From: an uncultured Micavibrio sp.
Lineage (GTDB): Bacteria; Pseudomonadota; Alphaproteobacteria; Micavibrionales; Micavibrionaceae
Length of the DNA stretch: 64,000 bases
Reading direction: 5' to 3'
Assembly: GCA_964400125.1 (NCBI GenBank)
Contig: CAYNSR010000004.1
Coordinates: forward strand, 99,391-163,390
The notes beneath the pieces are model-generated. The model had not been told where the DNA came from. It ran no database searches and was given only the letters and a program-made list of their open reading frames with translations. Below are positions 22,250-36,761 of the stretch, piece after piece (the stretch's first letter is position 1; every line of letters starts with the position of its first letter). Both the position numbers and the translations under genes were made by a program.

Positions 22250-23463
22250 TTTACGGTGCCTGCCTTTTGCAGCTCTTCGATTTCAGGCCGGGACAGGCCG
22301 AGCAGGTCTTGGAGAATCTCGGCGGTATGTTGCCCTTCCATTGGTGGGGGCAGGCGATATTCAACGCTTGTGCCGGATAGTTTCAACGGGCTTCCGACCA
22401 GATCGATCGGGGTCGGGCTTTGCGGGTGAGGCATGCGGATTTGCATTTGTCTCGCATGAATCTGGTCGAGCGCGAAAACCTGATCCATGCGGTTGACTGG
22501 CCCGCAGGGTACGTCGATATCGCGCATCAGATCGACCAGTGGCACAATTTTGTGCTGCATCATGATTTCGGCAATCATCGGAACAATGATATCGCGGTTA
22601 TGCACCCGTGCGGTGTTGGTCGCAAAGCGGGGGTCGTTTGCCCATTCTTCATGGCCGAGAGATTTGACGAATCTCCGGAATTGTACGTCGTTGCCGATGG
22701 CGATCACGACCCAGCCATCGGCGACTTCGAACGCCTGATAGGGCACGATGGTTGAATGGGCGTTGCCGTAGCGCGGTGCGGGTTTCCCCGCAGTCAGGAA
22801 AAACTGCGCCAGATTGGTCAGGCTGGCCAGCGTACAATCCAGCAGCGCCACATCGACATGCTGTCCTTGGCCGGAGTTTTTGCGGGCGTGCAATGCCGCA
22901 AGGATGCCGATGGCGGCGTAAAGCCCGGTCATGACGTCGCTCAACGCTACACCGACCTTCATCGGCGCGCCGTCGGGTTCGCCGGTTACGGCCATCAAGC
23001 CCCCCATGGCCTGTACCAGCAGGTCATACCCGGGTTCGGTGGACAGGGGGCCGTTCTGGCCGAATCCCGTGATGGAGGCATAGATGATATGCGGATGTCT
23101 GGCATGGATGCTGTCGTAATCCAGCCCGTATTTCTTTAACCCCCCGGTTTTGAAATTTTCAATCAGGATATCCGATTTTTCCAGCAGCCGATGGACAAGG
23201 TCCTGCCCTTCCGGTGTAGTGATGTCGATGGCAATCGAGCGTTTGTTGCGGTTGCAGGACAGGTAATAGGCGCTTTCGCCTGTATCGTTGCCGTCAGCAT
23301 CTTTCAGAAAAGGGGGGCCCCATTTGCGCGTGTCGTCTCCGGCACCGGGGCGTTCGACCTTGATGATGTCGGCCCCCATGTCGCCAAGAATCTGGGTGCA
23401 GGCCGGACCGGCCAGAACCCGCGACAAATCCAGTACCCGTAATCCGCTTAATGCGCCGCTCAT
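22246..23463 (-). CDS. CoA-transferase family III protein (CaiB/BaiF-like)
   Basis: N-terminal LSGLRVLDLSRVLAGPACTQILGDMGADIIKVE signature. Confidence 0.85.
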   Translation of the reverse strand: MSGALSGLRVLDLSRVLAGPACTQILGDMGADIIKVERPGAGDDTRKWGPPFLKDADGNDTGESAYYLSCNRNKRSIAIDITTPEGQDLVHRLLEKSDILIENFKTGGLKKYGLDYDSIHARHPHIIYASITGFGQNGPLSTEPGYDLLVQAMGGLMAVTGEPDGAPMKVGVALSDVMTGLYAAIGILAALHARKNSGQGQHVDVALLDCTLASLTNLAQFFLTAGKPAPRYGNAHSTIVPYQAFEVADGWVVIAIGNDVQFRRFVKSLGHEEWANDPRFATNTARVHNRDIIVPMIAEIMMQHKIVPLVDLMRDIDVPCGPVNRMDQVFALDQIHARQMQIRMPHPQSPTPIDLVGSPLKLSGTSVEYRLPPPMEGQHTAEILQDLLGLSRPEIEELQKAGTVK

Positions 23464-23972
23464 CCGATCACCGTTGCAATGCTGGAAAACTTATAGAGTG
23501 CGACCAGAGCAATTCCAACCGCGAAACCGGGTCCGGCGGGAACTTCCAGCCGGGACAGGCTGAACGGCGCTTTTCTGGTAAATGTCTGTATCAGGGCGGT
23601 TCCGATCCCGTGGACCAGTCCGCCTGCAGCGCCAAGCGTCAGCGCCATCAGCACTCCTTCCGGCCCCAGCCACAGCCCCGCCGTCAGCATCAGCTTGACA
23701 TCTCCCAGCCCGAGCGTGTCTTGCTGGTAGATGTGGTTGGCGATAAAACGAATTCCATAAAGAATCCCTCCCCCGAGCATTGCCCCGAGTGCGATGTCGG
23801 GCAGACCCACAAAATGGAAGGTTGTTATGCTATGAAAAACAAGGGCGAGCAGGCCGAAGGGCAGGACCAGCCGATCCGGCAAAAGCCGCACACGCAGATC
23901 GATTATCGCCAATGCGATCAGAATTCCGGTGGCCGCGACGAGGCAGAGCAATGCAGGAATGAAGATGGTCAT
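23460..23972 (-). CDS. Short A24-family prepilin peptidase (CpaA/TadV-like, no methyltransferase domain)
   Basis: 170 aa polytopic protein with two Asp motifs, IIDLRVRLLPD and GLGDVKLM. Its stop overlaps the downstream CoA-transferase ATG (ATGA). Confidence 0.75.
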   Translation of the reverse strand: MTIFIPALLCLVAATGILIALAIIDLRVRLLPDRLVLPFGLLALVFHSITTFHFVGLPDIALGAMLGGGILYGIRFIANHIYQQDTLGLGDVKLMLTAGLWLGPEGVLMALTLGAAGGLVHGIGTALIQTFTRKAPFSLSRLEVPAGPGFAVGIALVALYKFSSIATVIG

Positions 23973-24008: not shown

Positions 24009-24176
24009 TGGGGTGTGGTGTTTTATACCAGCGGGATGTGTGGATAAAAGGCGTTTTTTGCCCCGAACGCCTTGTTCTGCCTTGCAAAGTGGTTTCAACT
24101 TTGAGGTCTGAGGCCTCCGCGCCTGCCTGTTCTGCAACCCAGTCCTTCTCGTGTGACCAGCCATTTCGAAAAATCA

Positions 24177-24551
24177 ATGACCGACGCCCCGAAAATCATG
24201 ATCGTTGAAGATAACGATTTCGTACGCATGCAGGTGGTCCGTTATCTGAAGGAGGCCGGATTTGAAACATGCGAGGCCAGAGACGGCAACGAGGCGTTGG
24301 AAGCTCTAGGTGTCGATGTGCGGGCGGCGATTGTGGATGTGCGCATGGAGCCGATGGGCGGGCTGGAATTTGTGCGCACCTTGCGGGGCAGGGAAATTGA
24401 TGTGCCGGTTGTTCTGATGACCGGAGACCAGAATACGGATCTGCTTGAGCAGGCCGCGAAGTGGGATGTAAGCGCTGTTTTGATAAAGCCGGTCATGAAG
24501 GATCGGCTGGTTCAGGCGGCGCAACGGGCGATTGCTCAGAGGCACCTGTAA
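24177..24551 (+). CDS. Single-domain response regulator (receiver only), first gene of the filament operon
   Basis: IVEDND, AIVDVRMEP (phospho-Asp) and LIKP. No output domain. Confidence 0.85.
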   Translation: MTDAPKIMIVEDNDFVRMQVVRYLKEAGFETCEARDGNEALEALGVDVRAAIVDVRMEPMGGLEFVRTLRGREIDVPVVLMTGDQNTDLLEQAAKWDVSAVLIKPVMKDRLVQAAQRAIAQRHL

Positions 24552-24590
24552 CAGGTTTGAAATGGGTTTGATGTGATGGGTTTGACGGGC

Positions 24591-26342
24591 ATGATCGATT
24601 CTGTAGAGCAAGGCGGTTTTCGCCGTCGCGCCATGCATGCCTTGCTGGCGGGCGTGATTTTACTGGCCGGTTGCGCTTCGGCGGATGTCCCGGATTCCAG
24701 AACGGTCAACGTTCCCGCGCCGACTCTGGCGGAAAAGCGGCGCGATGCCGTGAACGAGCGTCCTGACAGTGTGATGTATCTGCCGCTTGGCCGCGATGTT
24801 CTGTTGCCTGAAATCGCTACGGATGACGATTTGCCCACCGAGGAAGTCGGGCCGTTCGAACTGCGCGGCGAAACGCTGGCCGGGGCGTTGCAGTTGATCC
24901 TTGCCGATTACGATGTTCCGCTTTCTTTCGAAACGGACAAGGGACTGACCCGTCCCATTACCGTGGCCAATTTGCGCGGACCTTTGAACAAGGTCGTGCG
25001 GCACCTTTGCGGGCTGGCGGAGCTTTATTGCGCCTTTGAAGATGGAATTATGATTGTCAAGGATACGCAAACCTTCACCGTCAAGATCCCGCCGATCAGT
25101 CAGGATACGGGTTTTATGCAGAGCGTGGCGACGGGTTTGCAGGCGATCGTCGGGACGTCTCCCATCCTTGACACTTCGACGCGCACCATCATTTATGAAG
25201 CCTCGCAGCGAAACGCCGATATGGCGCTGCGTTATTTCCAGCGCATGCGCAGCAGTACGGCCCTGATCGTCTTTGAAACCTATATCTGGGAAGTTGCGCT
25301 GGACGGTGGAAATTCGACAGGCATCAACTGGCAGCTTCTTCAGTCGATCGGCAAGTTCAATACCGGAATTGAACTGACCGGATCAATCGGGGTCGGCGCG
25401 ACAGGCTCCTTCGCCAGCCCGGTCAGTATCGGTTTGCCTGTCACCGGAAGCATCAAAAATGCGGACGGCAGTTTCGGTGCGACGGAAGTATTTGATTTCC
25501 TGTCGCGCTTTGGTGCCGTGAAAACCATTTCCCAGCCGCAAATCACCGTTCTTTCGGGTTCGGAAGCGACGTTGCGCGCTGCGGATCGCACCAATTTTGT
25601 GTCCAATATATCGGAAACGCTGGATAACGGGCAGTCGAGTACCTCGGTCAGTACGGACTCTGTCGAAACCGGCTTTACCCTGACAATCGCCAGCGCTTGG
25701 GACAATGCAACCGTTTATGCCGATATCAGCATTTCTCTGACCGATGTGATTCAGATTGATGATTTTACCTTCTCCACAACCGGCGGGGGGTCTACGCAAA
25801 TCCAGTTGCCGCGTACGACCGAGCGCGAAGTCACGACGCAGGTTCGTATCCGTCCGGGCGATTCCCTGTTGCTGGCGGGGCTGGTGCGCGAGGACGACAA
25901 TTACCAGTCGACCGGACCGGGGCTTGACTCGCCCATCCTGCCGACCAGCCGCACGGCGGAAACATCGAATGTCGAGGTCGTTTTCCTGATGCGTCCGCGG
26001 GTTGTGGTCTACACGAATGCCGATGAGCAGACTCATCATCAGGGGGCGCGCACGCTGCCCGCAAAAACGCCTGCACACGCTCCGGCGGTGTTGCCGGATT
26101 CTGTTTCGCCCGTGCCGGAACCGGTTGAAGATATTCCGCCACAGGCAAGTCTGCCGCCAGTGCCCGTGACCCGCCCCGATGCAGCCGCGCCTGTATATTC
26201 CCAGCCATTGGCGGAGCCCGATTCCTCGGTGGAAATTGCGCCGCTGAATGAAAGCGTTCCGATGAATCTTGTGCCCGCAGAAATGCGTGCCGGAGATCAT
26301 GCCAGTACCCCATATGTCGCCAGACCAGTCCAGTTTCGCTAG
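24591..26342 (+). CDS. Outer-membrane secretin lipoprotein (T4b PilN/BfpB/TcpC-like) with Pro-rich C-terminal tail
   Basis: Lipobox LLAGC after an RRR n-region. Secretin C-domain AVKTISQPQITVLSGSEA...LPRTTEREVTTQVRIRPGDSLLLAGLV...EVVFLMRPRVV. Alternative starts at 24573, 24576 and 24633. Confidence 0.8.
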   Translation: MIDSVEQGGFRRRAMHALLAGVILLAGCASADVPDSRTVNVPAPTLAEKRRDAVNERPDSVMYLPLGRDVLLPEIATDDDLPTEEVGPFELRGETLAGALQLILADYDVPLSFETDKGLTRPITVANLRGPLNKVVRHLCGLAELYCAFEDGIMIVKDTQTFTVKIPPISQDTGFMQSVATGLQAIVGTSPILDTSTRTIIYEASQRNADMALRYFQRMRSSTALIVFETYIWEVALDGGNSTGINWQLLQSIGKFNTGIELTGSIGVGATGSFASPVSIGLPVTGSIKNADGSFGATEVFDFLSRFGAVKTISQPQITVLSGSEATLRAADRTNFVSNISETLDNGQSSTSVSTDSVETGFTLTIASAWDNATVYADISISLTDVIQIDDFTFSTTGGGSTQIQLPRTTEREVTTQVRIRPGDSLLLAGLVREDDNYQSTGPGLDSPILPTSRTAETSNVEVVFLMRPRVVVYTNADEQTHHQGARTLPAKTPAHAPAVLPDSVSPVPEPVEDIPPQASLPPVPVTRPDAAAPVYSQPLAEPDSSVEIAPLNESVPMNLVPAEMRAGDHASTPYVARPVQFR

Positions 26343-26354
26343 AGGTTTTGAATT

Positions 26355-27995
26355 TTGACGCGTTCGTTTGAAAACATGAGGTTCGCAGGGGCGCCGGAAA
26401 CTGGCGGCGGTTTGTTTCACGCCGCGCGGCGGCATGTTTTTGCGGCGTTTCTCGGGGTGGTTATCAGTCTGGTGTCGCCGTCGGACTCTTTCGCACAATC
26501 TGCTTTTGACGATCCCGGCGCGCGTGCGGGTGGAAAGGCCGGGTCCGTTGGCGATCTGGTCCCGACGCAGCCGTCCATCGATGCCGGGAATATCAGTGTC
26601 GGTGCGACCGCGCAGGTTGTCGTTCTGTTCCGCAATGACAGCGGACGGGCCCTGACGACCGGGGCGATCAATCTTTATCCGTCATCAACGGTTTCGGCGG
26701 CGGTCGCGCTCAACGAATGTCAGGATCTGGACCCTCTTCCGCCCGGTGCGGTGTGTGCCGTTGGCCTGTCGATCAAGGGGCTGCAATCGGGGCGCTGGCG
26801 GGTGGAAATGTTGATGCGGCATACCGGGACCACACGTCTGGTTACGGCCACGTTGCAGGGCAATATCGAAGATACCGATGCCGGCACGGGCAATACCTTC
26901 AAGAGCGATATCGAGGCGATTCCTTCGACCATGGATTTCGAAAAGCTGACCACCAGCCAGCCTGCTGTTCAGCCGGTCGTGTTGCGGAATATCACATCGA
27001 CGCCGATCGATATCGCCGCGATTTACGTTGAATCGGCGGAACAGGCCGGGTTCAGCTTCCGTACTGATTGTGAAAAACTCACCCCCGGTCAGGCCTGTAT
27101 CGTGACCATGATTTGGTCGCCGATCCTCAAGGGGCAGGCCACTGGCGTTTTGGTGGTCGAACACAACGGTCCGACCAGTGTGGCCAGTATCCCGTTATCC
27201 GGCGAATTCACGCCGACCGGGGTCAGTGTCGCGCAGACTTTCCCCGAGGCGGTTCCGGGCAAGGGGCTTTTGGTGTCTTCGCAGGACCGGATCGATTTCG
27301 GCTCCAGCATCGAGACGGCTTCGGCCATTACGGTTTCACTGGTCAATGTCGGCGATGCCGCCCTGACGATCGAGGATGTCAGTCTGGCCGGGTCCGACAG
27401 CGGGATTACGCTCAGCAAGTCCGGTTGCGTTCCGGGCATGGTTCTGGACCCGATTCAGGCCTGTCCCCTGACCCTGACATGGTCGCCTGTGCGGCAGGGT
27501 GCCATTCTGGATGATGTCCAGATCGTCCATAGCGGCGCACGGGGTATTCTGGTTATGCCCGTACGCGGTACGGCCAATGCAGTAGTGAACAAGGACAACA
27601 AGGCCATCCGTCTGGCGGATTCCGGTGCGACGGTTTCTCTGGAACCTGGCACGACCGCCACCGATTCCATCGCCAGAGAAATGATTGTCCGGGACAAGGA
27701 TGTAGACCCGACCGGGGTTCTTGACGGTTTTGCCGTAACATCACATTCCAGCAAACGGGCCATTATCACCGGTCCCGGCGGCAGCAGGATTGTTTTTGAC
27801 GGGGAAGAGGCGGTCATTGGCGGGTTCTTATGGAATGTAAAAATCCGCTCCAGCGGAGTCGAGTTCCAGACCGGCGACCGGAAGGTTCTCTTGCTGTTTG
27901 ACCGTTCGTTGAATACGCCATCTTCATCTTCTGTTAACCGAACTTCATCACAATCAACTGGTACTGCTGGTGCTGCCGCATCGGCTGGCCAGTAG
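26355..27995 (+). CDS. Periplasmic protein with 3 tandem Ig-like (ASH/choice-of-anchor-D-like) repeats, a PilP/GspC-HR-like C-terminal domain and a Ser/Thr/Ala tail
   Basis: Signal peptide ...VFAAFLGVVISLVSPSDSFA/QS. Three repeats of about 95 aa share DFG..V.L.N.G...L.I....C..L.PG..C.V...WSP...G....L.V.H.G. The C-terminus reads LDGFAVTSHSSKRAIITGPGGSRIVFDGEEAVIGGFLWNVKI. TTG start (alternative ATG at 26376). Confidence 0.6.
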   Translation: MTRSFENMRFAGAPETGGGLFHAARRHVFAAFLGVVISLVSPSDSFAQSAFDDPGARAGGKAGSVGDLVPTQPSIDAGNISVGATAQVVVLFRNDSGRALTTGAINLYPSSTVSAAVALNECQDLDPLPPGAVCAVGLSIKGLQSGRWRVEMLMRHTGTTRLVTATLQGNIEDTDAGTGNTFKSDIEAIPSTMDFEKLTTSQPAVQPVVLRNITSTPIDIAAIYVESAEQAGFSFRTDCEKLTPGQACIVTMIWSPILKGQATGVLVVEHNGPTSVASIPLSGEFTPTGVSVAQTFPEAVPGKGLLVSSQDRIDFGSSIETASAITVSLVNVGDAALTIEDVSLAGSDSGITLSKSGCVPGMVLDPIQACPLTLTWSPVRQGAILDDVQIVHSGARGILVMPVRGTANAVVNKDNKAIRLADSGATVSLEPGTTATDSIAREMIVRDKDVDPTGVLDGFAVTSHSSKRAIITGPGGSRIVFDGEEAVIGGFLWNVKIRSSGVEFQTGDRKVLLLFDRSLNTPSSSSVNRTSSQSTGTAGAAASAGQ

Positions 27996-28039: not shown

Positions 28040-29869
28040 ATGAGCGACCAGGATTTTCCAGATGGACAGCATGAGGAGGCCAAGCCGGATCTGACGCCCG
28101 ATCGGCGTGGCGCGGTTGTACCTGATCGCCGGAAAAATCCAGCCGGAACCCCGCCCGACGGGATTGACCGCCGGGTTTGGGCCGACCGCCGCAAGGCCCG
28201 GTCGAATGAGGGGCGGGAGCGCTATCTGGACATGGTCCAGAAGGAACGCTCCGTACTCCTTGACCAGGGTGTTACCCGCTCCACGGAGCAGCTTTTAGAT
28301 CTTGCCGGGGTTGGCGGGACGTCCCACACGGAGGAAGAAGGCGTTCGTGATCGCGCAACCGGGGACCAGTTGCGCTCGATCCTCCCGGTCCAGTCATGGT
28401 TGCCGCTTTCAATTCACCTGATCGGTTTGAAAGACGGCATTTTGCGCATTGCCCCGTTGCATGAGCTGAATGACCGCCAGATCAAGGCGCTGTTGTCGAC
28501 ATCGGTGCGTTCCGGCCTTGTCGTTGACCGGGTCGAGGTCGAGGTCTGGGACCGTGCGGAATTGCTGTCGACGTTGCGTTCCGTGCATGATCTTTCGGCG
28601 GATCGCACGGAAAAAACCCTTGCCCAGTGGTTGGGGGATGTCGATAACGGTTTGCTCCTGAACCAGTTCCAGCGCGATATGATGGCCGAAGCGTTGCAGA
28701 TGCGGGCCTCTGATATTCATCTGTTGCAGGACAACAACCCCGAAACCCCAAACTGGATACGCTACCGGATCGATGGCGATGTTATCCCGATGCACCTGTT
28801 GCCTAACGATGCCATGGCGCGTTTGACGACGTTGCTCAAGCGCGATGCGGGGCTGAACTTCGGGGATCGTACGACGCCTAAGGACGGGCGTTTCTCCTTT
28901 ATCTGGCAGGGCCGGAACATCGACGTTCGTGTTGCTGCCGGGCCGCAGGCGCAAGACGGCGAAAAGCTGACGCTGCGTTTGCTTGACCGTGCCGCCCTCA
29001 AGGGATTTGACGAACTGTTCCGCCGTCACGAAGATGTCGGAAACTATCTTTCGCAGCTCCTGTCGCCGGAGATCAAGGGCGGGGGCGGGCTTATCCTGCT
29101 TTCCGGTCCGACGGGTTCGGGGAAAACGACGACGCTTTATGCCTGCGTCCAGCAGATCGACCGCCGCCGCCGCCATGTCCTGACCATTGAAGATCCAATC
29201 GAATATGAATTGCGTTATGCCACGCAATGGCAGGTGCGTTCTGGCATGCCGGGGGGGGAATTTTCTGACCTGATCCGCGCGGCCATGCGTCATGATCCGG
29301 ATTACATCATCATCGGGGAGATGCGGGACGGCGATACGGTCGAGACCGCCTTGCGCGCCGCAGAATCGGGACACACGGTGATTTCGACCATTCACGCCGA
29401 CACTGCGCTTCAGACATTCGAGCGCCTGCGGTCCCTGATGCCGGTCGCTCGGGAACGGTCATCGACATTCACGTTGGCGCAGCAGGTCAAGGCGATCATG
29501 AACCAGCGCCTGATTAAAACGCTGTGTCAGGGGTGTGCGCATAAATCGCGGGCGGCCGATGCCCTGGAGCCGCATGAATTGGCGATGCTGGGGATCGATC
29601 CGGATGCGGCAATCCGCCGTCGTAACACGACAGGCTGCGATCTTTGCAACCGGACGGGGATCATGGGGCGGACGCTGCTGCTCGATGCGGTCCTGATTCC
29701 GCTCGGGCCGTCGCAGCGCGATGCGGTCTATAATGCGATGATGCAAAACGTAAACCAGATTGTACACGAAGATGGCGTGATCGTTCATACGCGGCGGGAG
29801 GGACTGGTCGATCTGGTCCTGAGCGGCCTTGTCGATCCGAAATCTGCGTTGTCGAATCTTGAAGATTAA
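28040..29869 (+). CDS. GspE/PilB-family assembly ATPase with tetracysteine motif and an N-terminal DRR-repeat extension
   Basis: Walker A GPTGSGKTTT, Asp box LTIEDPIEYEL, Walker B DPDYIIIGEMRD, His box GHTVISTIHA and CQGC...CDLC. A T2SSE_N-like segment is present (LPLSIHLIGLKDGILRIAP). Confidence 0.9.
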   Translation: MSDQDFPDGQHEEAKPDLTPDRRGAVVPDRRKNPAGTPPDGIDRRVWADRRKARSNEGRERYLDMVQKERSVLLDQGVTRSTEQLLDLAGVGGTSHTEEEGVRDRATGDQLRSILPVQSWLPLSIHLIGLKDGILRIAPLHELNDRQIKALLSTSVRSGLVVDRVEVEVWDRAELLSTLRSVHDLSADRTEKTLAQWLGDVDNGLLLNQFQRDMMAEALQMRASDIHLLQDNNPETPNWIRYRIDGDVIPMHLLPNDAMARLTTLLKRDAGLNFGDRTTPKDGRFSFIWQGRNIDVRVAAGPQAQDGEKLTLRLLDRAALKGFDELFRRHEDVGNYLSQLLSPEIKGGGGLILLSGPTGSGKTTTLYACVQQIDRRRRHVLTIEDPIEYELRYATQWQVRSGMPGGEFSDLIRAAMRHDPDYIIIGEMRDGDTVETALRAAESGHTVISTIHADTALQTFERLRSLMPVARERSSTFTLAQQVKAIMNQRLIKTLCQGCAHKSRAADALEPHELAMLGIDPDAAIRRRNTTGCDLCNRTGIMGRTLLLDAVLIPLGPSQRDAVYNAMMQNVNQIVHEDGVIVHTRREGLVDLVLSGLVDPKSALSNLED

Positions 29870-29914: not shown

Positions 29915-31135
29915 GTGCAGCAGTGGATTGCCGAAATCGCGTATGAATCTTCCTCCGGCCCCCGCAGGGTGGTCGAGTCCTTTTACCTGCCCTCCGTCGA
30001 CGATGTCCGTATGGAAGTGGCAAAGAAGGGCGGCTACGCCCTGACCATCCGGCCCCACGAGCGTTCGCCCATTGAGCGTATCCTGTCGCGTTCGACCTGG
30101 TGGCAGGTGCAATTGTTGCGCGGAATCCAGTTTCGGTCGATATCCACCTCGCCCGGTGTGGCGTTGTGGCGGATCATTCAGGCTGAGACCAACCCGATGC
30201 GGCAGAATATTCTGGCCCCCGCGCGGGAGGCTCTGGCGCGCGGTCTTGGGGTGATTGACGCGCTGAAGGCGCTGAATGCCTTCGATCACAGCACGATTGC
30301 GATTCTGGCGGCCAGCGAGCGGTCGAACAAATTGCAAGAAGGTATCCCGCACGCGATTCATTCGATCACCCAGAAACGCCGGAACACGCGGGCGATCATC
30401 GGCACTATGTCATGGCTGGCTATTGACGTCGTTTCGATCGTTCAGTCGTTGTTCTGGGGGCGTGGCATGGTGCTGGAATGGTTCCATGACAATGCCCCGC
30501 CGGGCGCGGAGGAAAAAGAGAAATTCGACCGCGTGGTCGGAAATCTGGCGCTGACCTGGGATGTTTTGATTGCCACGGCCTTCGGGGCCGGGGCCTTTAT
30601 GGCGTGGGCGGTGTTTTCCTTCTGGATGAACAAAGGCAAGACGGATTGGCCGACGGCTCGCGTAGTACGGAAAATACCGATGTTCGGCGCGTATTTGCGC
30701 GATCTTGGCTTTGCCGATTCAATGATGGCGGCGGCGCGGATGATGCGCGGACTGGTCCCGATCAGCGATACGTTGCGCCAGTCTTCGGAAGCGACCAATG
30801 TGCCGGAGGTTTCGGCTTACTGGGAAGCTGCCAACAAGGAACTGGAAAACGGGGTCGGTCTCGGGGTGGCGCTGGATCGTTCTCCGCTGACCCGCAGCGA
30901 GCGGCTTGAACTGGCCAGCTTGTCTGATCTGGCGCAAGTTGCTACAGTATTGGAGTCTATTGCCGAAATGCGTGCATCCTCGGCAAAGACGAAGCACGCG
31001 CTGATCGTGTGGATTGCCTTCGGTCTCACCGGTGTCTACCTCGCCCTTGCCTTTGGTAGTGCCATTTACGCATTGACAGTTATGAATATGAGCATGGACG
31101 GCATGATGAGTGGTCTTATGGAAGGAGCACATTGA
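29915..31135 (+). CDS. Divergent GspF/PilC-like inner-membrane platform protein
   Basis: 406 aa with three hydrophobic segments and two internally similar helical regions (WWQVQLLRGIQF..., FADSMMAAARMMRGLVPISDTL). It sits directly after the ATPase. GTG start. Confidence 0.6.
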   Translation: MQQWIAEIAYESSSGPRRVVESFYLPSVDDVRMEVAKKGGYALTIRPHERSPIERILSRSTWWQVQLLRGIQFRSISTSPGVALWRIIQAETNPMRQNILAPAREALARGLGVIDALKALNAFDHSTIAILAASERSNKLQEGIPHAIHSITQKRRNTRAIIGTMSWLAIDVVSIVQSLFWGRGMVLEWFHDNAPPGAEEKEKFDRVVGNLALTWDVLIATAFGAGAFMAWAVFSFWMNKGKTDWPTARVVRKIPMFGAYLRDLGFADSMMAAARMMRGLVPISDTLRQSSEATNVPEVSAYWEAANKELENGVGLGVALDRSPLTRSERLELASLSDLAQVATVLESIAEMRASSAKTKHALIVWIAFGLTGVYLALAFGSAIYALTVMNMSMDGMMSGLMEGAH

Positions 31136-32142
31136 CTTTGGCTCTTTCCTTTAAAGACATGGGTCTGCCCGGGCGTAAAAAGAAAGGTGCCGAGGAGGAG
31201 CGTGCTGTCCGGGAGGGTGGTGCTGCTGCCGCGCCATCCAGACCCCGTCCCGGCATGGCGGATGTGATTGCCGGTGAGACGGCGAATTTTCAGGCCAATC
31301 TGACGCCTTATCTTCCTGCCGAGCTTATCGGTGGTTCCATTCCGCATATCCCGGGGACCGAGGATGAAGCCGTGTGGAACGCAGCGGCGCAGGCCTGCGC
31401 CACGGAAAAAGTGCATTACTGCTATTCCATCGAGGGTGGGCGTTGCTGGTATCTGGCGATTCCGTCCTCGGCGCTGGCATCGAACCCGGATAGCTGGTGC
31501 CCGCTTGCGGCGGCTTTGCCGGGGCATAGTGAATTCTGGGACAAGGAAACGGTTTACCTCTACGAGCAGGAAGGTGCCGCCGCCGCCCTGCGCTGGGACC
31601 CGGAAACGCACAGGATGCAGGTCTATATCGGCGCTTCGCGAACGCTATTGCCGCGAATCCAGAGCATGGATGCGAATTTCGTCACCATCAACCCGGATAT
31701 CGCCAATGTGATTCCTTGGCGGAACCGGGCTCTGCGCACCGAAAAATTGTCGCGGGCGGCGGCGCGAACCCTGTTGCTTGCGGGGCTGGGGCTGACGACG
31801 ATTATCCTGTGCATTCTTTTTGCACAATATGGCTGGACACTGATGCTGAAGCGGGACCTGCAAAAGGTGAGGGACGCGACGGACAAGGCCTCCAACGATC
31901 TGATGATTAATGCCTATAACGCCCTGCAAAGCGATACGATCAAGCACATGGTGAAAATTCAGGATCTGCTGGATACGTTGCGCACCATCGAGGGGACTTT
32001 GGTCAAATACGAAGTCGTCAAGGGCAAGACGACATGGGTGGCTCTGGTGCCGAAATCTTTCAGCGGCGGGGTCGGCGTGGTCAGGGGTGAAATTTCACCG
32101 GTGATCGAAAAAGACGGGCGGGTCAAGCTGACAGGGCATTAA
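31132..32142 (+). CDS. Orphan bitopic membrane protein in the GspL/BfpC/PilM-N position (cytoplasmic domain of about 205 aa, TM, periplasmic coiled-coil plus small domain)
   Basis: One TM segment (LLLAGLGLTTIILCILFAQYGW). TTG start 5 nt after GGAAGGAG, overlapping the previous stop (TTGA). No recognisable motif, so the call rests on topology and gene order. Confidence 0.4.
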   Translation: MTLALSFKDMGLPGRKKKGAEEERAVREGGAAAAPSRPRPGMADVIAGETANFQANLTPYLPAELIGGSIPHIPGTEDEAVWNAAAQACATEKVHYCYSIEGGRCWYLAIPSSALASNPDSWCPLAAALPGHSEFWDKETVYLYEQEGAAAALRWDPETHRMQVYIGASRTLLPRIQSMDANFVTINPDIANVIPWRNRALRTEKLSRAAARTLLLAGLGLTTIILCILFAQYGWTLMLKRDLQKVRDATDKASNDLMINAYNALQSDTIKHMVKIQDLLDTLRTIEGTLVKYEVVKGKTTWVALVPKSFSGGVGVVRGEISPVIEKDGRVKLTGH

Positions 32143-32268: not shown

Positions 32269-32805
32269 GTGGACTTTAAATCTTTTGACATGAGATCTGT
32301 GCAGAAATATCTCCAGCCTCAGGCGGCCGAGGATCTCAATGTCTTTCTCGAGCGCCTGCCGCAAACGGCGGGCAACAGCATTCTGATCGCGGCGGCGATT
32401 GCGTGGACGGCGGCGGCGGCACTTGGCCTTTATACCTTTGTGCAAACCCAGCAGATGATCGAATTGCGCGCCAAACTGAAAGATACCGCAGCGCTTCAGC
32501 CACTGGTCCCAAAAATCACCGATGTTGCGGTGAAGGCGGACGAGGTAACGAAATTTGCCAAGGAGTTGTCGGAAATTTATCGCGGCCTCAGCATCAAGTC
32601 CCAAGGATCGACCATCCAGATTTCGGCGGCAGATACGGCGCGCTTTGCCGAATTCCGCGAGGCGATCGGGCATGTGCAAAACGGCGGATCGGGCTGGCGG
32701 GTGAGCGTCGAGCGTCTTTGCGTCGGCCGCGAATGCGACCGGGAAAAGCTGGCAGCATTACTGAAAATCAACAAGGTTTCCGTGGACAGGCCCGAAATGC
32801 AATAA
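32269..32805 (+). CDS. Orphan small bitopic membrane protein in the GspM/PilO position
   Basis: Short cytoplasmic N-terminus, a TM segment (ILIAAAIAWTAAAALGLYTFV), a coiled-coil and a small alpha/beta region. GTG start (alternative ATG at 32290). Confidence 0.35.
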   Translation: MDFKSFDMRSVQKYLQPQAAEDLNVFLERLPQTAGNSILIAAAIAWTAAAALGLYTFVQTQQMIELRAKLKDTAALQPLVPKITDVAVKADEVTKFAKELSEIYRGLSIKSQGSTIQISAADTARFAEFREAIGHVQNGGSGWRVSVERLCVGRECDREKLAALLKINKVSVDRPEMQ

Positions 32806-32879: not shown

Positions 32880-33623
32880 ATGACGGTAGTAGTAAAGGAA
32901 AGATCGGGGGAACGGGGGAATGTGCTGTTCCTGATCCTGATCGCGGTGGCGCTGTTTGCGGCCCTGTCCTACGCGGTGACGCAATCGACGCGTTCCGGTT
33001 CTGGCGATGCCTCGAGCGAGACCAGTTTGATCAATTCCGCCCAGTTGGCCCAATATCCGGCCGGTGTCCGGACGGCGGTGGTGCGTATGGTGATTGGCGG
33101 AACTTCGGTTGACAACCTGATTTTCGATGCCCCTGCCAATTTTTCCGCGATTTCTGATTTGACCTATAACGTCTTCCACCCGACGGGCGGCGGCGCGGTT
33201 TTTCAGGTTGCGCCTAAGGATTTGCTGGCGCCGGGTGAGACAGGCGAATGGATTTATTCCTCCCGTTACCAGATTGACGGTATCGGCATCACTGATAGTG
33301 CGCAGCTTAGCGGCAATGAAGTGATCGCCTTCCTGCCGGGGGTTTCGCGGGATGTTTGCAGGAAACTCAACAGTGAGGTCGGCATTACCAGTTCGAACGC
33401 TGACGGGGTGCCGGTAACGACCGATCTTGGCGCTGATCCGCCCACCGCAGCACCAGTGAACACCGAAGGCATGACAGAGGCAGCGCCGGGCGCTCCCGGG
33501 ATCGGGGCCTATATCGCCACGATCGGCGGCGGACTGGCGGGCCAGCCCTTTGGATGCTTCAGGGTTGGTGCTGTGGGGCCGACGGCAACCTATGTTTACT
33601 ATCACGTTCTTGTCGAGCGTTAG
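32880..33623 (+). CDS. Pilin-like protein 1 with GspK/PilX-type leader (ERG|NVLFLILIAVALFAAL), no Glu5
   Basis: The leader MTVVVKERSGERG has a positive charge and is followed by a 20-aa hydrophobic helix. There is a strong SD (GAAGGAGA) before the ATG, and two Cys in the C-terminal half. 247 aa. Confidence 0.55.
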   Translation: MTVVVKERSGERGNVLFLILIAVALFAALSYAVTQSTRSGSGDASSETSLINSAQLAQYPAGVRTAVVRMVIGGTSVDNLIFDAPANFSAISDLTYNVFHPTGGGAVFQVAPKDLLAPGETGEWIYSSRYQIDGIGITDSAQLSGNEVIAFLPGVSRDVCRKLNSEVGITSSNADGVPVTTDLGADPPTAAPVNTEGMTEAAPGAPGIGAYIATIGGGLAGQPFGCFRVGAVGPTATYVYYHVLVER

Positions 33624-33656
33624 TTCCAGCACGCGCGATTGCCTGAAGAATAAGCG

Positions 33657-33690
33657 GAGGCCTGATGCGTGAAAGACCGCATCGGGCCTC
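33657..33690 (+). promoter_or_regulatory. 13-bp stem-loop between the two pilin-like genes (possible attenuator or processing site)
   Basis: GAGGCCTGATGCG-tgaaagac-CGCATCGGGCCTC has one G-U pair. No T-run follows it. Confidence 0.45.
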
Positions 33691-33718
33691 TTGCCCGGTG
33701 AAGAAAGATGATAAAGCG

Positions 33719-34462
33719 ATGTCTCTATATCGGCGGACAAACGAGCGCGGCAGCGCACTGGTCTATATCCTGATTGCCATTGCCTTGCTGGCGGCGTTGA
33801 CGGTGAGTTTTATGGAGCCGGCCAGTCAGCAGACGCAGAGCCAGAACAGTTTCAAGATGGTCTCGGAATTCGAAGCCCAGATCGACTTTATCCGCACGGC
33901 CGTTCAGGAATGCGTGATCCTGTACCAGATGGGGGATAACGGCATTGACAGCACCGCTGGTGGTGCTGTGACCCTGACCGAGGGTGCGAACAAGAAATTT
34001 CCGATTGATCCACGCTCCAGCTACCTGACCAATCCCTCGGCCAGTGCGGACCCGCTGGTGCGCGAGTTGCGTTGTCCGGGCAACCCCGGCGACAACGCCG
34101 ACCACCAGCCGGTTTTTTCAGGCAGTTCGGGGAAATTTCTGGGCCCGCCCCCTGCGATGTTCGAGGAATGGCGCTGGTATAACGGTCTCGATGGCATTTT
34201 CTTCTGGACGTATACGCTCAATACCGATGCGTTCATCCAGACATCCATGGACAAGCTGAATGAGAGTTTTGGCCTGTGCGAGGCCGATGTTGTCCGCGCG
34301 GGGGCTATCAGTATGGATATGGACAATGCTGGGGATGTGGTTTGCCCGGCGAATGCGACGTGTTTCCGTTTGTGGATGTCGGTAGATAATGAAACCGTCG
34401 CCGATCTGGAGGAATCACTCTACCCCGACCCCAGTCCCGCCGAGGCGGGGAATTGCCCGTGA
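33719..34462 (+). CDS. Pilin-like protein 2 with GspK/PilX-type leader (NERG|SALVYILIAIALLAAL), no Glu5, Cys-rich
   Basis: The N-terminal architecture matches the upstream gene and the predicted length is identical (247 aa). 7 Cys in the globular part. Confidence 0.55.
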   Translation: MSLYRRTNERGSALVYILIAIALLAALTVSFMEPASQQTQSQNSFKMVSEFEAQIDFIRTAVQECVILYQMGDNGIDSTAGGAVTLTEGANKKFPIDPRSSYLTNPSASADPLVRELRCPGNPGDNADHQPVFSGSSGKFLGPPPAMFEEWRWYNGLDGIFFWTYTLNTDAFIQTSMDKLNESFGLCEADVVRAGAISMDMDNAGDVVCPANATCFRLWMSVDNETVADLEESLYPDPSPAEAGNCP

Positions 34463-34472
34463 AGATGTCTCT

Positions 34473-36761
34473 TTAGATTTTCTGGATTGCTGTGCGCAAT
34501 GCGGAAAAGGCATCGCCAATCCGGGCGACCAGCGTGTCCGATAGATTGCCCTGTTCGCTTTCGTCCTGAAGCCGGGCGGCCAGATCGCCCAAGGGAGTAC
34601 AGCACGCCGAGCGGGCACCGCCTTTCAGGCTGTGGGCGCTTTCCCGCAGGCGGGGAATATCCTTTTCGGCATGGGCCAGTTCAATCTCCGCGATCAGCGG
34701 GGCGCTCATCTCGACGAATATTTTCACCATCTCAATCGCTTCCGTGCGATCTGCGCCCATCTGCTCCATAAGTGCGTCAATGTCATATGGCGCGGCGTCA
34801 TCATCCGTACCGTTTGTCGGGGCCGGGGATGGAATAACATCGGTGCTGTCTCTCAGCAACCCCCAGCGGATGAGCAGGCGCCGCAATTGTCCGAGCGACA
34901 CCGGTTTTAACAGGCATTCATCAAACCCTTGTGCCAGATAAACCTGACGCTGCACCATCTGAACGTCAGCGGTCAGGACAACCACGGGCAGGTGATGTGT
35001 GTCGTCGCCCTTGTTTTTTTCCTGTGTCCGCAAGGCGTCAACCAGATCATAACCGTCCATTTCCGGCATATGCAGATCGGTAAACAAAATGCCGTAAATG
35101 CCGCGTTCCAGCGCCCGCAAGGCCTCTTTGCCGTTGGCAACGAAATCAGCTTCGACCCCGAGGCGCCCGAGCTGTCTGCGGATGACTTCCTGAACGGTTT
35201 CATTATCCTCCGCGATCAGCAGCCGCGTGGGGCCTTGTGAATCAATGGCAATCTGCCTGCGTGTTGCTTCCTTGACGACAGTGCCAAGGCCGAGACGGCT
35301 TGCCGGTTTTGACAGATAGGTCACCCCCAGAGCCTGCAGGCTGTGTTGCAGGCCGATATCGTCGCGCACTGTATACATGATAAGACCCATGAAAGGCCGT
35401 ATGGCCATGATTTCACGGATCAGCTCCAGACCCAGACCATCGGGGAGTCCCTGATCGATCACGCCAACATCGAAGGGGCGGCGCCTGACAAGCTCCAGCG
35501 CTTCGCGATACGTCGGGCAGCTTTCGACCTGCGCCCCCATGGATTGCAGTGATTTGACGATCTCCCGCGCCCCTTGCGGATGATCTTCGACGGAGAGAAC
35601 TGAAATTCCGTCCAGAGAAGGTAGTCCTGTATTTTGTGAATCGGTGCCGACTTCCTCCGTCGGGATTTCAAACCAGAAGACGGACCCTTCCCCCGGGGCG
35701 CTTTCAACGCCGATCTGGCCGCCCATCATTTCCACAAGACGTTTGCAGATGGACAGTCCCAGACCCGTGCCGCCATATTTGCGGGATGTCGAGTTGTCTG
35801 CCTGCGAAAAGGGTTTGAAAAGGCGGGCGCAGGTTTCTTCATTCATGCCGATTCCCGTGTCCCTGATTTCAAAACGCAGGATCAGCCCGTGTTCGGGCGG
35901 GGACATGACCTTCGGCGTACGCGAAACGTGAATCGTCACGGAGCCTTTTTCCGTGAACTTGAGGGCGTTTCCGGCCAGATTCAGGATAATCTGGCGCAGG
36001 CGTTTGGGGTCCCCGGTCACAACAAAGGGAACATCCGCAGGAATATCGTCGAGCAAGGTCACATGCTTTCCCTGCACCTTGACGGACAGTGCCTCGAGGG
36101 TCCCGCGGACCAGTGTGCGTACAGGAACCTCGAAACGGTCGAGCTCCATTTGCTGCGCATCCATTTTTGCAAAATCAAGAATATCGTCGAGGATTTCAAG
36201 CAGACCGCTGGCAGAATGTCTGGCTGTGTCAACCATGGTCTGGATGGCCTGTGGCGGGCACTCTTCGGCGATGAGCTCAAGGAAACCGTAGACGGCTTGC
36301 ATGGGGGTACGAATTTCATGGCTCATCGTTGCCAGAAAATTGGCTTTGGTTTCTGCGATGGCGTCGGCTTGCGCCACTTCGCGCCTGAGTTTCTCCTCAG
36401 TTTCCATGCTGGCGGAAATATCGGTAACCCACAGGACGAGGACGTCTTCCGTCTGGATACGGTCTTCGCTGACGGTGATTTTTGTCCAGCGTTTTTTTTC
36501 CGGTTTTTCTGCATGGTAGACAGGCAGGATAAAATTATGCGGCGGGACGGTGTTTTTTAACTTTGCAACCAGATTTTCTATTTCCGGGTTTGGCCATAGA
36601 CAGGACAGGGGGATTCCTTCCGTCTCGAAAGAGGACGCATATCCCGATTTCAGCATATAAAGCAGGGCGTGGTTGGCATACAGAATCGGAAAATCGTGCC
36701 CGTCGCGGCGAACCACGCACACACCCAGCGGGACAGATTCGTAAAATTCCTTGGACTGCAT
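34473..36761 (-). CDS. Soluble hybrid sensor histidine kinase (PAS-HisKA-HATPase-REC-REC-HPt)
   Basis: H-box [10 protein letters not shown]-box [15 protein letters not shown], two receiver domains ([22 protein letters not shown]) and an HPt motif [10 protein letters not shown]. No TM segment. Confidence 0.85.

What the first reader, a model, noticed from the sequence alone, without database searches (positions are those of the whole stretch)
32880..34462. Two equal-length pilin-like proteins with GspK/PilX-style ERG leaders and no Glu5; no canonical major pilin anywhere in the locus
Both proteins begin with a short basic leader ending in ERG, followed by a hydrophobic helix of about 20 aa. 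The helices read NVLFLILIAVALFAALSYAV and SALVYILIAIALLAALTVSF. Cleavage after the Gly by the A24 peptidase would put Leu or Tyr at position +5 instead of the near-universal Glu5. In known systems, loss of Glu5 is characteristic of the tip subunit (GspK/PilX-type), not of the polymerising subunit. Here both candidate subunits are of that type. With my preferred start codons both are 247 aa, although the globular parts look unrelated (2 Cys versus 7 Cys). There are two readings. The filament may assemble by a Glu5-independent mechanism, or these proteins may not be filament subunits at all, for example a tip-only complex or peptidase-processed secreted or anchored proteins.
Basis: partly seen in the sequence, partly recalled or inferred. 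Interest (0 to 1): 0.72.

Follow-up and report, generated by a model that had tools for sequence, protein, structure and literature searches.

The report
Glu5-less pilin pair, Micavibrio filament machine
Two unannotated proteins at the end of a type IV filament gene cluster, kept throughout the predatory Micavibrio group, look like pilin subunits but lack the glutamate at position 5 that a 2023 cryo-EM paper calls absolutely conserved in bacterial type IV pili, so the filament, if there is one, would assemble differently.

Summary
Window 32880-33623 (A) and 33719-34462 (B) encode proteins with a short basic leader ending E-R-G, then a roughly 20-residue hydrophobic helix, with Leu or Tyr at +5.

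Across homologues the leader varies in length and sequence. The Gly and the following helix are 99% (A) and 90% (B) identical, although the globular parts are only about 45-53% identical. This is the conservation pattern of a prepilin signal.

Both genes close a self-contained type IV filament operon: short A24 peptidase, lipoprotein secretin, GspE/PilB-like ATPase, divergent platform, and three orphan proteins. About 60 of the 82 related loci examined keep the whole cluster in the same order, M. aeruginosavorus included. At least 438 species-level Micavibrio-like genomes carry A.

No canonical Glu5 pilin lies in the 64 kb window or in 1.42 Mb of related loci.

No pilin, PilX_N or GspK model matches either protein. 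The best structural matches for A are type IVb pilin CofA, but they are not significant.

Published RNA-seq shows A expressed more than 10 times higher than B.

Best reading: A is the major and B a minor subunit of a lineage-specific filament that assembles without Glu5. Cleavage and polymerisation are inferred, not shown. Canonical pilins exist elsewhere in M. aeruginosavorus, next to their own machine.

The parts
23460..23966 (-). Short A24 prepilin peptidase, about 169 aa. The mechanical ORF extends to 24164. It has no N-terminal methylase domain.
   Evidence: Pfam Peptidase_A24 E=9e-17 is the only domain hit. The M. aeruginosavorus orthologue is 168 aa (GMV_1939, 507 nt). The motifs IIDLRVRLLPD and GLGDVKL are read directly from the sequence. 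The gene is divergently adjacent to the operon in most related loci.
24153..24551 (+). Single-domain CheY-like response regulator, the first gene of the operon.
   Evidence: Pfam Response_reg E=5.5e-21. Its position is conserved in related loci.
24573..26342 (+). Outer-membrane secretin with a lipoprotein signal (LLAGC lipobox).
   Evidence: Pfam Secretin E=1.2e-16. The best NCBIfam hits are MshL (96.8 bits, cut-off 250) and the type IVb PilN family (79.6 bits), both below cut-off. The lipobox is read from the translation.
26355..27995 (+). 546 aa protein with a Sec-type signal and Ig-like repeats (ASH / choice-of-anchor D). It could be a periplasmic component or a cargo or adhesin; its role is unknown.
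   Evidence: Pfam ASH E=1.9e-14 and NCBIfam choice_anch_D E=1.1e-15. It is conserved between the secretin and ATPase genes in related loci. The signal peptide is my reading of the sequence.
28040..29869 (+). GspE/PilB-class assembly ATPase.
   Evidence: Pfam T2SSE E=6.4e-79. NCBIfam GspE scores 231.7 bits and PilB 228.6 bits, both far below their cut-offs of 630 and 676. It is 72-81% identical in most related loci.
29915..31135 (+). Highly divergent GspF/PilC-type platform protein.
   Evidence: Pfam T2SSF scores only 30 bits, E=5.4e-7. NCBIfam GspF scores 30 bits against a cut-off of 424. It is 65-84% identical within the group.
31132..32142 (+). Orphan 336 aa bitopic protein: a conserved cytoplasmic domain, one TM helix and a periplasmic domain. 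This is a GspL-like or PilM-N-like topology, by inference.
   Evidence: No Pfam, NCBIfam or PDB hit, either alone or as a profile or member set. Its TM is poorly conserved (33%) while the cytoplasmic part is 74% identical.
32269..32805 (+). Orphan 178 aa bitopic protein with a conserved ~35 aa cytoplasmic N-terminus. It is not a prepilin and has a GspM/PilO-like topology by inference. It always sits directly upstream of A.
   Evidence: N-termini across 76 loci show a conserved cytoplasmic segment and a variable TM. No family or PDB hit. The p178-A-B module also occurs detached from the machine genes.
32880..33623 (+). Protein A: prepilin-like, and the candidate major subunit.
   Evidence: 3506 homologues, all 'hypothetical'. 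Invariant Cys160 and Cys226. AF2 model pLDDT 88.5, with a TM helix, a hinge, a long helix and an alpha/beta domain. Foldseek's top two hits are ETEC type IVb pilin CofA, at E=0.097 and 1.1, which are not significant. The orthologue GMV_1931 is the highest-expressed gene of the locus (GEI 9.9 attack / 53.8 attachment).
32880..32918 (+). A leader peptide (MTVVVKERSGERG) ending in the invariant Gly, the putative cleavage site.
   Evidence: Leader length is 7-30 aa and identity 34% across homologues. The Gly is invariant.
32919..32984 (+). A putative mature N-terminal helix, NVLFLILIAVALFAALSYAVTQ. It has no Glu5 and no Thr/Ser2.
   Evidence: 99% mean pairwise identity, against 45% in the globular part. 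Synonymous codons vary freely under the invariant residues.
33719..34462 (+). Protein B: prepilin-like, and the candidate minor or tip subunit. An alternative start lies at 33665.
   Evidence: 883 homologues. Six invariant Cys. AF2 model pLDDT 90.4. No significant PDB fold match. Its N-terminal ~70 aa are related to A (hhalign 95%, E=2.7e-8). The orthologue GMV_1930 has GEI 1.8/4.1.
33719..33751 (+). B leader peptide (MSLYRRTNERG) ending in the invariant Gly.
   Evidence: Leader length is 4-40 aa and identity 31% across homologues.
33752..33811 (+). B putative mature N-terminal helix, SALVYILIAIALLAALTVSF, with Tyr at +5.
   Evidence: 90% mean pairwise identity. It is conserved in 64 loci that were not selected on B.
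34473..36761 (-). Hybrid histidine kinase convergent with B. It is a conserved neighbour and a possible regulator together with the CheY-like protein.
   Evidence: The orthologue carries HisKA, HATPase_c, Response_reg and Hpt domains. It is adjacent in most related loci.

Best explanation
A and B are the dedicated prepilin-like substrates of a self-contained, lineage-specific type IV filament machine of Micavibrio-like predatory alphaproteobacteria.

Proposed steps, all inferred rather than shown:
1. Both proteins insert into the inner membrane through their N-terminal helix.
2. The adjacent short A24 peptidase, which has no methylase domain, removes the variable basic leader after the invariant Gly. 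This leaves unmethylated Asn1 on A and Ser1 on B.
3. The GspE/PilB-like ATPase and the divergent platform extract the subunits and polymerise A, the abundant subunit, into a filament. B acts as a low-abundance minor or priming subunit.
4. The filament passes through the lipoprotein secretin.

Helix packing must work without the Glu5 to N-terminus salt bridge. It would rest on an almost invariant hydrophobic helix.

The segment of A between its two invariant Cys is the most variable part of the protein. I therefore lean towards an exposed pilus rather than a periplasmic T2SS-type pseudopilus, at roughly 60:40. In M. aeruginosavorus the locus is expressed more in the attachment (feeding) phase.
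For: 1. Prepilin-type conservation pattern. Leader identity is 34% (A) and 31% (B), with variable length. The Gly at -1 is invariant. The next ~20 residues are 99% (A) and 90% (B) identical, while the globular parts are 45% and 53%. The TM helices of two other bitopic proteins in the same operon are only 52% and 33% identical.
2. Synonymous codons vary freely under the invariant residues, so selection acts on the protein.
3. A and B share only the N-terminal ~70 residues, as pilins of one system do.
4. Gene context. Peptidase, secretin, ATPase and platform sit in one cluster. About 60 of 82 related loci keep the cluster in the same order, M. aeruginosavorus ARL-13 included. At least 438 species-level genomes carry A. 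A and B are the only candidates for peptidase substrates in the cluster, and there is no room for another gene.
5. Published RNA-seq for ARL-13. GMV_1931 (A) has GEI 9.9/53.8, against 1.8/4.1 for GMV_1930 (B) and 0-10.8 for the machine genes.
6. Each of the three type IV filament gene sets in ARL-13 has its own peptidase. The canonical prepilin GMV_1530 lies near a separate T4aP-like set with a long peptidase.
7. The AF2 model of A has a TM helix, a long helix and a beta-sheet domain. An invariant Cys pair brackets the most variable segment, which has 35% identity and spans 54-72 aa. Foldseek's top two hits are type IVb pilin CofA.
8. Paralogues with an anti-sigma-like layout keep the globular domain of A but not the conserved helix. 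The invariance is therefore tied to the prepilin-like form.
Against: - No experiment shows cleavage, polymerisation or a filament.
- No pilin HMM matches either family, and no PDB sequence matches.
- The Foldseek hits to CofA are not significant (E=0.097, TM about 0.3), and B has no fold match.
- Glu5 is described as absolutely conserved in bacterial type IV pili (PMC10710030).
- Both AF2 models break the helix at a polar hinge after the TM segment. In pilin crystal structures alpha-1 is one continuous helix.
- The A helix counts from the genome loci are biased, because those loci were retrieved with helix peptides. The index-free search offsets this.
- Canonical prepilins exist elsewhere in M. 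aeruginosavorus.
Confidence: 0.55

Rival explanations
1. A and B are minor, tip-type pilins (GspK/PilX-like). They only prime or cap a filament whose body is a canonical Glu5 major pilin encoded elsewhere in the genome.
For: In known systems, loss of Glu5 marks the capping subunit of the minor-pilin tip complex (PMC10191384). The N-terminus of B weakly resembles GspK and Verru_Chthon cassette protein A (E=0.053 and 0.016). M. aeruginosavorus encodes several canonical prepilin-type proteins at other loci.
Against: - The canonical prepilin GMV_1530 lies near a separate secretin, PilB, PilC, PilT and long peptidase. The Flp pilin sits in a Tad cluster with a third peptidase.
- A is the most highly expressed gene of its locus, more than 10 times B.
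- No canonical pilin lies within 10 kb of the cluster in any of 82 loci.
- Known tip complexes contain several Glu5-bearing minor pilins plus one Glu5-less cap. Here both proteins lack Glu5.
- The local peptidase has no methylase domain.
Confidence: 0.15
2. A and B are cleaved by the peptidase but do not polymerise into a long filament. Instead they are displayed or anchored as a short stub or surface complex. Possible models are archaeal class III signal binding proteins (the bindosome), a tip-only complex, or cargo released through the secretin.
For: Both have large globular domains of about 210-225 aa and a polar, low-confidence hinge directly after the TM helix. Both lack Glu5. B is cysteine-rich, with three likely disulfides, and has no pilin-like fold match.
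Against: Near-absolute invariance of 22 helix residues is hard to explain for a simple anchor. It fits multi-partner helix packing better. The cluster has a full extension machine with a secretin. The expression asymmetry between A and B fits major and minor subunits.
Confidence: 0.15
3. A and B are uncleaved bitopic inner-membrane accessory proteins of the machine, functional analogues of GspC or PilN/O/P. The peptidase would then act on substrates encoded elsewhere.
For: No pilin model matches either protein. An N-in signal-anchor topology is equally compatible with the sequence. Several type IV filament accessory proteins are bitopic.
Against: - The leader is variable in length and sequence and ends in an invariant Gly, while the helix is invariant. 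This is the reverse of the true bitopic proteins in the same operon: p178 has a conserved cytoplasmic N-terminus and a variable TM, and the p336 TM is 33% identical.
- p336 and p178 already occupy the GspL/M-like slots.
- A has tandem and dispersed paralogues.
- A is expressed well above the machine genes.
Confidence: 0.12

Closest known systems
Type IVb pili (V. cholerae TCP/TcpA, ETEC CFA/III CofA, R64 thin pilus) and MSHA-type systems
   Same: Large pilin-like subunit of about 230 aa in its mature form. Variable residue at +1. No Pro22. An invariant Cys pair brackets a variable C-terminal segment. Compact single operon with its own peptidase, a lipoprotein secretin and no retraction ATPase. 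The best secretin hits are the MshL and type IVb PilN families. The best Foldseek hits for A are CofA.
   Different: All known type IVb pilins keep Glu5, which is critical for TCP biogenesis (PMC10710030). Here it is absent. All family scores are below cut-off. Neither protein shows sequence similarity to any solved pilin. The peptidase lacks a methylase domain. Three operon proteins are orphans.
GspK / PilX(PilK)-type tip minor pilins
   Same: No Glu5. N-terminal motif of the form (Q/E)-R-G followed by a Leu/Ile/Ala-rich helix. B gives weak N-terminal matches to NCBIfam GspK and to Verru_Chthon cassette protein A.
   Different: No match to PilX_N or T2SSK models in any of 139 family members. 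No GspK-like fold match. There are no accompanying Glu5-bearing GspH/I/J-type partners and no major pilin in the cluster. A is highly expressed.
Archaeal type IV pilins, archaellins and other class III signal proteins (for example the Sulfolobus bindosome)
   Same: Glu5 is not conserved in archaeal type IV pili (PMC10710030). They are processed by peptidases without a methylase domain. Three B homologues give faint hits to the archaeal Pilin_N model (E about 0.07).
   Different: The ATPase here is of the bacterial GspE/PilB class, and a secretin is present. The hits are not significant. The organism is an alphaproteobacterium.
Tad/Flp (type IVc) pili and the Myxococcus Kil predation apparatus
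   Same: Prepilin peptidase without a methylase domain (PMC10191384). A type IV filament machine in a bacterial predator (the Kil system; PMC12428579).
   Different: No Flp-type G/XXXXEY pilin. The platform is a single protein, not TadB plus TadC. The ATPase is not TadA-like (65 bits). M. aeruginosavorus has a separate, genuine Tad cluster.
Type II secretion system
   Same: GspD/E/F/O-class components sit in one cluster. The ARL-13 genome paper reports a 'functional' T2SS in which GspC, G, H and K are missing from the annotation. That probably refers to this cluster, although the paper does not give locus tags.
   Different: There is no GspG-type major pseudopilin and no recognisable GspC/H/I/J/K/L/M. 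All equivalog scores are far below cut-off. The exposed-looking part of A is hypervariable, which would be unexpected for a periplasmic pseudopilus.

Membership tests
Type IV pilin / class III (prepilin) signal peptide | Short, positively charged leader ending in Gly at -1 | tested here: met
   The Gly is invariant in 68 A and 71 B homologues, and the G-N junction is kept in nearly all of the top 150 index-free hits. Leaders are 4-40 aa and rich in K, R, N and Q.
Type IV pilin / class III (prepilin) signal peptide | About 20 hydrophobic residues directly after the cleavage site, more conserved than the rest of the protein | tested here: met
   Helix identity is 99% (A) and 90% (B), against 45% and 53% for the globular parts.
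Type IV pilin / class III (prepilin) signal peptide | Glu at mature position 5 (and Thr/Ser at position 2) | tested here: not met
   A has Leu5 and Val2; B has Tyr5 and Ala2. No homologue examined has Glu5.
Type IV pilin / class III (prepilin) signal peptide | Match to N_methyl-type HMMs (the Pfam N_methyl model PF07963, or NCBIfam prepilin-type models) | tested here: not met
   No hit for the window proteins or for any of 139 family members.
Type IV pilin / class III (prepilin) signal peptide | Pilin fold: a long N-terminal helix packed on an antiparallel beta-sheet | tested here: inconclusive
   The AF2 models are confident (pLDDT 88.5 and 90.4) and show a TM helix, a hinge, a long helix and a sheet. 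Foldseek's top hits for A are CofA, but only at E=0.097 and 1.1. B has no match.
Type IV pilin / class III (prepilin) signal peptide | Genetic linkage to a prepilin peptidase, an assembly ATPase and a platform protein | tested here: met
   All are in one cluster, and about 60 of 82 related loci keep the same order.
Type IV pilin / class III (prepilin) signal peptide | Leader removal by the A24 peptidase and incorporation into a filament | not testable with these tools
   This needs N-terminal sequencing or mass spectrometry, and filament purification.
GspK / PilX-type tip minor pilin | Match to PilX_N (PF14341), T2SSK or NCBIfam GspK (NF037980) models | tested here: not met
   A gives no hit. 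B scores 13 bits against a cut-off of 130, over the N-terminal 34 aa only. No family member hits these Pfam models.
GspK / PilX-type tip minor pilin | Absence of Glu5 | tested here: met
GspK / PilX-type tip minor pilin | Encoded together with Glu5-bearing minor pilins (GspH/I/J or FimU/PilV/W) and a major pilin | tested here: not met
   No such gene occurs in the window or in 82 related loci.
Tad/Flp (type IVc) system | Flp pilin with a G/XXXXEY motif, a TadA ATPase and a split TadB/TadC platform | tested here: not met
   No Flp motif. The platform is a single 406 aa protein. The best ATPase hits are GspE and PilB, with the TadA family at 65 bits.
Tad/Flp (type IVc) system | Prepilin peptidase without a methylase domain | tested here: met
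   The protein is about 169 aa and hits only Peptidase_A24.
Type II secretion system | GspG major pseudopilin and the GspC/L/M assembly platform | tested here: not met
   No hits to these families. GspD, GspE and GspF equivalog scores are far below cut-off.
Type IVb / MSHA pilus system | Equivalog-level match of the secretin (MshL, or PilN of type IVb pili), and a lipoprotein secretin | tested here: inconclusive
   MshL scores 96.8 bits against a cut-off of 250, and PilN-IVb 79.6 against 288. A lipobox LLAGC is present in the sequence.

The most novel reading that the evidence does not exclude
Micavibrio-like epibiotic predators build a bacterial type IV filament whose polymerising subunit has no Glu5, no Thr/Ser2 and no N-methylation. 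If so, filament assembly would not depend on the Glu5 to N-terminus salt bridge, and helix packing would be fixed by an almost invariant 22-residue hydrophobic helix. The filament would be deployed mainly during the feeding (attachment) stage.
Probability: 0.4. Interest if true: 0.8.

Novelty: new variant of a known kind. Interest (0 to 1): 0.62.

Why it matters
A 2023 structural paper states that Glu5 is absolutely conserved in bacterial type IV pili. It is thought to neutralise the buried N-terminal charge or to drive subunit docking. A machine conserved across a bacterial order, whose only prepilin-like substrates lack Glu5, would be a natural counter-example. It would offer a direct test of what Glu5 and N-methylation are for.

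The finding also assigns a likely role to two large 'hypothetical' families: 3506 and 883 database hits in the word-indexed search, and about 4000 clusters at 50% identity for A. It may also account for the pseudopilins missing from the T2SS reported for M. aeruginosavorus. Finally, it points to an unstudied envelope machine in an obligate predator that is being considered as a living antibiotic.

Tried and rejected
- Pfam and NCBIfam scans of all ten locus proteins, and of every member of the A, B, p336 and p178 alignments. No pilin, PilX_N, GspK, Tad, GspL/M or PilN/O family was found.
- Profile searches of A, B, p336 and p178 against all PDB sequences. Nothing was significant.
- Foldseek of both AF2 models against the PDB. 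For A only sub-threshold CofA hits appeared, and for B nothing.
- I considered whether p178 is a third prepilin, because it reads ...TAG|NSILIAAAIAW. I rejected this: its cytoplasmic N-terminus is conserved and its TM is variable.
- I considered a hidden small Flp-type gene. I rejected it: intergenic gaps are at most ~127 nt, and no G-x4-E(Y) motif occurs in any frame.
- I treated the equal 247 aa length as possibly meaningful. I rejected it as coincidence.
- Literature searches for a description of this system in Micavibrio or Micavibrionales. I found only the 2011 genome paper's general remarks.
- Not done: comparison with type IVb pilin profiles, ATPase phylogeny, multimer modelling, and a whole-genome pilin census.
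Full report
**The observation.** The two ORFs are as described.
- Protein A starts at ATG 32880, with an AAGGAG Shine-Dalgarno 8 nt upstream. It reads MTVVVKERSGERG|NVLFLILIAVALFAALSYAV, is 247 aa and has 2 Cys. Close homologues begin MT..VKERSGERG, which supports this start.
- Protein B from ATG 33719 reads MSLYRRTNERG|SALVYILIAIALLAALTVSF. It is also 247 aa.
- An upstream ATG at 33665 has a better Shine-Dalgarno (GGAGG) and would give 265 aa. Either start leaves the same Gly-helix junction.
- B has 6 Cys in the 247 aa form. The seventh lies in the longer leader.
- The equal length is a coincidence, since homologues span about 223-300 aa.
- No G-x4-E or Flp-type N-terminus exists in any frame of the 64 kb window.

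**The surroundings.** A and B are the last two genes of a compact cluster:
- a short A24 peptidase (23460-23966, minus strand; Peptidase_A24 only, no methylase domain);
- a CheY-like regulator;
- a secretin with a lipobox (best NCBIfam hits MshL and type IVb PilN, both below cut-off);
- a 546 aa protein with Ig-like repeats and a Sec-type signal;
- a GspE/PilB-class ATPase (about 230 bits against cut-offs above 600);
- a barely recognisable GspF-type platform (30 bits);
- two orphan bitopic proteins of 336 and 178 aa;
- then A and B, with a convergent hybrid histidine kinase downstream.

The intergenic gaps are too small to hide another gene.

**Who has it.** A has 3506 and B 883 database homologues. 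Nearly all are unnamed or labelled 'hypothetical', two B homologues carry a JGI 'PulG pseudopilin' label, and many come from Micavibrio or related MAGs. The window therefore derives from a Micavibrio-like predatory alphaproteobacterium.
- The cluster is fully syntenic in M. aeruginosavorus ARL-13.
- A scan of species-representative genomes found at least 438 loci encoding A. All are labelled Micavibrio, Pseudobdellovibrionaceae or unclassified alphaproteobacterial MAGs.
- In about 60 of the 82 loci examined the whole gene order is kept, next to asd and sdh.
- None of these loci, 1.42 Mb in total, carries a canonical pilin motif.
- Variants exist: tandem A-A'-B, A-B-B', a detached p178-A-B module, and secondary loci with an extra copy of A.

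**Why A and B look like prepilins.** Across homologues the leader varies in length (4-40 aa) and in sequence, with 31-34% identity. The Gly is invariant. The following helix is 99% (A) and 90% (B) identical. The next helix is 62-70% identical and the globular parts 45-53%.

The operon supplies its own controls. The TM of p178 is 52% identical and that of p336 33%. p178 also has a conserved cytoplasmic N-terminus rather than a variable leader.

Synonymous codons are scrambled under the invariant residues. The A loci were retrieved with helix peptides, so that count is biased. An index-free HMM search gave the same picture. It found 4062 clusters at E<=0.001. The top 150 nearly all keep G|N(V/A/I)LFLILIAVALFAALSYAVT, and none has Glu5. 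More divergent members vary the helix but still lack Glu5.

Paralogues with an anti-sigma-like layout keep the globular domain of A but have an unrelated TM. A and B are related to each other only over the first ~70 residues (hhalign 95%, E=2.7e-8), as pilins of one system are.

**Structure.** The AF2 models are confident (pLDDT 88.5 and 90.4).
- Each shows a TM helix, a short polar hinge, a long amphipathic helix and an alpha/beta domain.
- In A the invariant Cys160 and Cys226 bracket the most variable, indel-rich segment (35% identity, 54-72 aa). This resembles the disulfide-bounded variable region of pilins.
- Foldseek ranks ETEC type IVb pilin CofA first and second for A, but not significantly (E=0.097 and 1.1; TM about 0.3).
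- B has no meaningful match.
- Sequence profiles find nothing in the PDB.
- No member of either family matches N_methyl, PilX_N, GspK/T2SSK or Tad models. The only trace is B against NCBIfam GspK, at 13 bits against a cut-off of 130.

**Evidence from M. aeruginosavorus.** The 2011 genome paper (PMC3189940) reports a 'functional' T2SS lacking GspC, G, H and K in the annotation. Its expression table shows three separate type IV filament gene sets, each with its own peptidase:
- a Tad cluster (GMV_527-540);
- a T4aP-like set (prepilin GMV_1530, a secretin, PilT/U, a long 825 nt peptidase, PilC and PilB);
- this cluster (GMV_1930-1939), in which A and B are annotated 'hypothetical'.

A (GMV_1931) has a gene expression index of 9.9 in attack phase and 53.8 in attachment phase. 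That is the highest in the cluster and falls in the paper's 'high' class. B has 1.8 and 4.1. The machine genes range from 0 to 10.8. This asymmetry is what a major and a minor subunit would show.

**Interpretation.** The best-supported reading is that A (major) and B (minor) are the substrates of this dedicated machine. The short, methylase-less peptidase would process them after the invariant Gly, and assembly would proceed without the Glu5 to N-terminus salt bridge. Reviews describe that salt bridge as a general feature. [quoted passage not shown]

Cleavage, polymerisation and surface exposure are inferred, not shown. The rivals are:
- tip-only pilins serving a canonical pilin encoded elsewhere (0.15);
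- processed but non-polymerising display proteins (0.15);
- uncleaved accessory proteins (0.12).

**Classification.** The system belongs to the type IV filament superfamily through its ATPase, platform, peptidase and secretin. It reaches no equivalog cut-off for T2SS, T4aP, T4bP/MSH, Com or Tad. Five of its ten proteins have no recognisable family. Its closest resemblance is to type IVb/MSHA systems in the lipoprotein secretin, the large subunit and the compact operon. The leader motif resembles GspK/PilX. I file it as a new variant of a known kind.

I found no paper describing it.

Noticed in passing
L036 8543-10687 and L072 8542-10690 (related genomes, which also carry the full locus as L050 and L020): These secondary loci hold three genes in a row. 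The first is an ECF-sigma-like gene. The second is a 267-276 aa protein with an anti-sigma-like layout, whose periplasmic part is 38% identical to the globular domain of A but whose TM is not conserved. The third is an extra A paralogue with the intact G|NVLFLILIAV.LFAALSYAVT helix. This hints at a regulatory circuit that uses a pilin-like sensor domain.
   Followed up: partly
L048, L053, L058, L065, L068, L054 (related loci): The three-gene module p178-A-B (p178-A in L054) occurs away from the peptidase, secretin, ATPase and platform genes. L061 has A-A'-B and L081 has A-B-B'. p178 therefore seems functionally tied to the two pilin-like proteins.
   Followed up: partly
window 28040-28250: The ATPase has an unusual N-terminal extension of about 70 aa with four DRR/RRK repeats (PDRRGAVVPDRRKNP...IDRRVWADRRKARS). 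It lies upstream of the T2SSE domain and matches no domain model.
   Followed up: no
window 24153-24551 and 34473-36761: A CheY-like single-domain regulator opens the operon, and a hybrid histidine kinase (its ARL-13 orthologue also carries an Hpt domain) converges on its end. Both are conserved neighbours in most related loci, which suggests phosphorelay control of the machine.
   Followed up: partly
window 26355-27995: A 546 aa protein with a Sec-type signal and ASH / choice-of-anchor-D Ig-like repeats always sits between the secretin and ATPase genes. It could be a periplasmic structural component or a cargo or adhesin of the system.
   Followed up: no
window 38628-39902: A membrane-anchored protein whose C-terminal part reads like a diguanylate cyclase (GGEEF motif seen in the translation) lies about 4 kb downstream of the cluster. 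It was not scanned against any family library.
   Followed up: no
P0183, P0212 (B homologues): JGI annotation calls two B homologues 'type II secretory pathway pseudopilin PulG', although they lack Glu5 like the rest. The label comes from an automatic pipeline and is not evidence of membership.
   Followed up: yes
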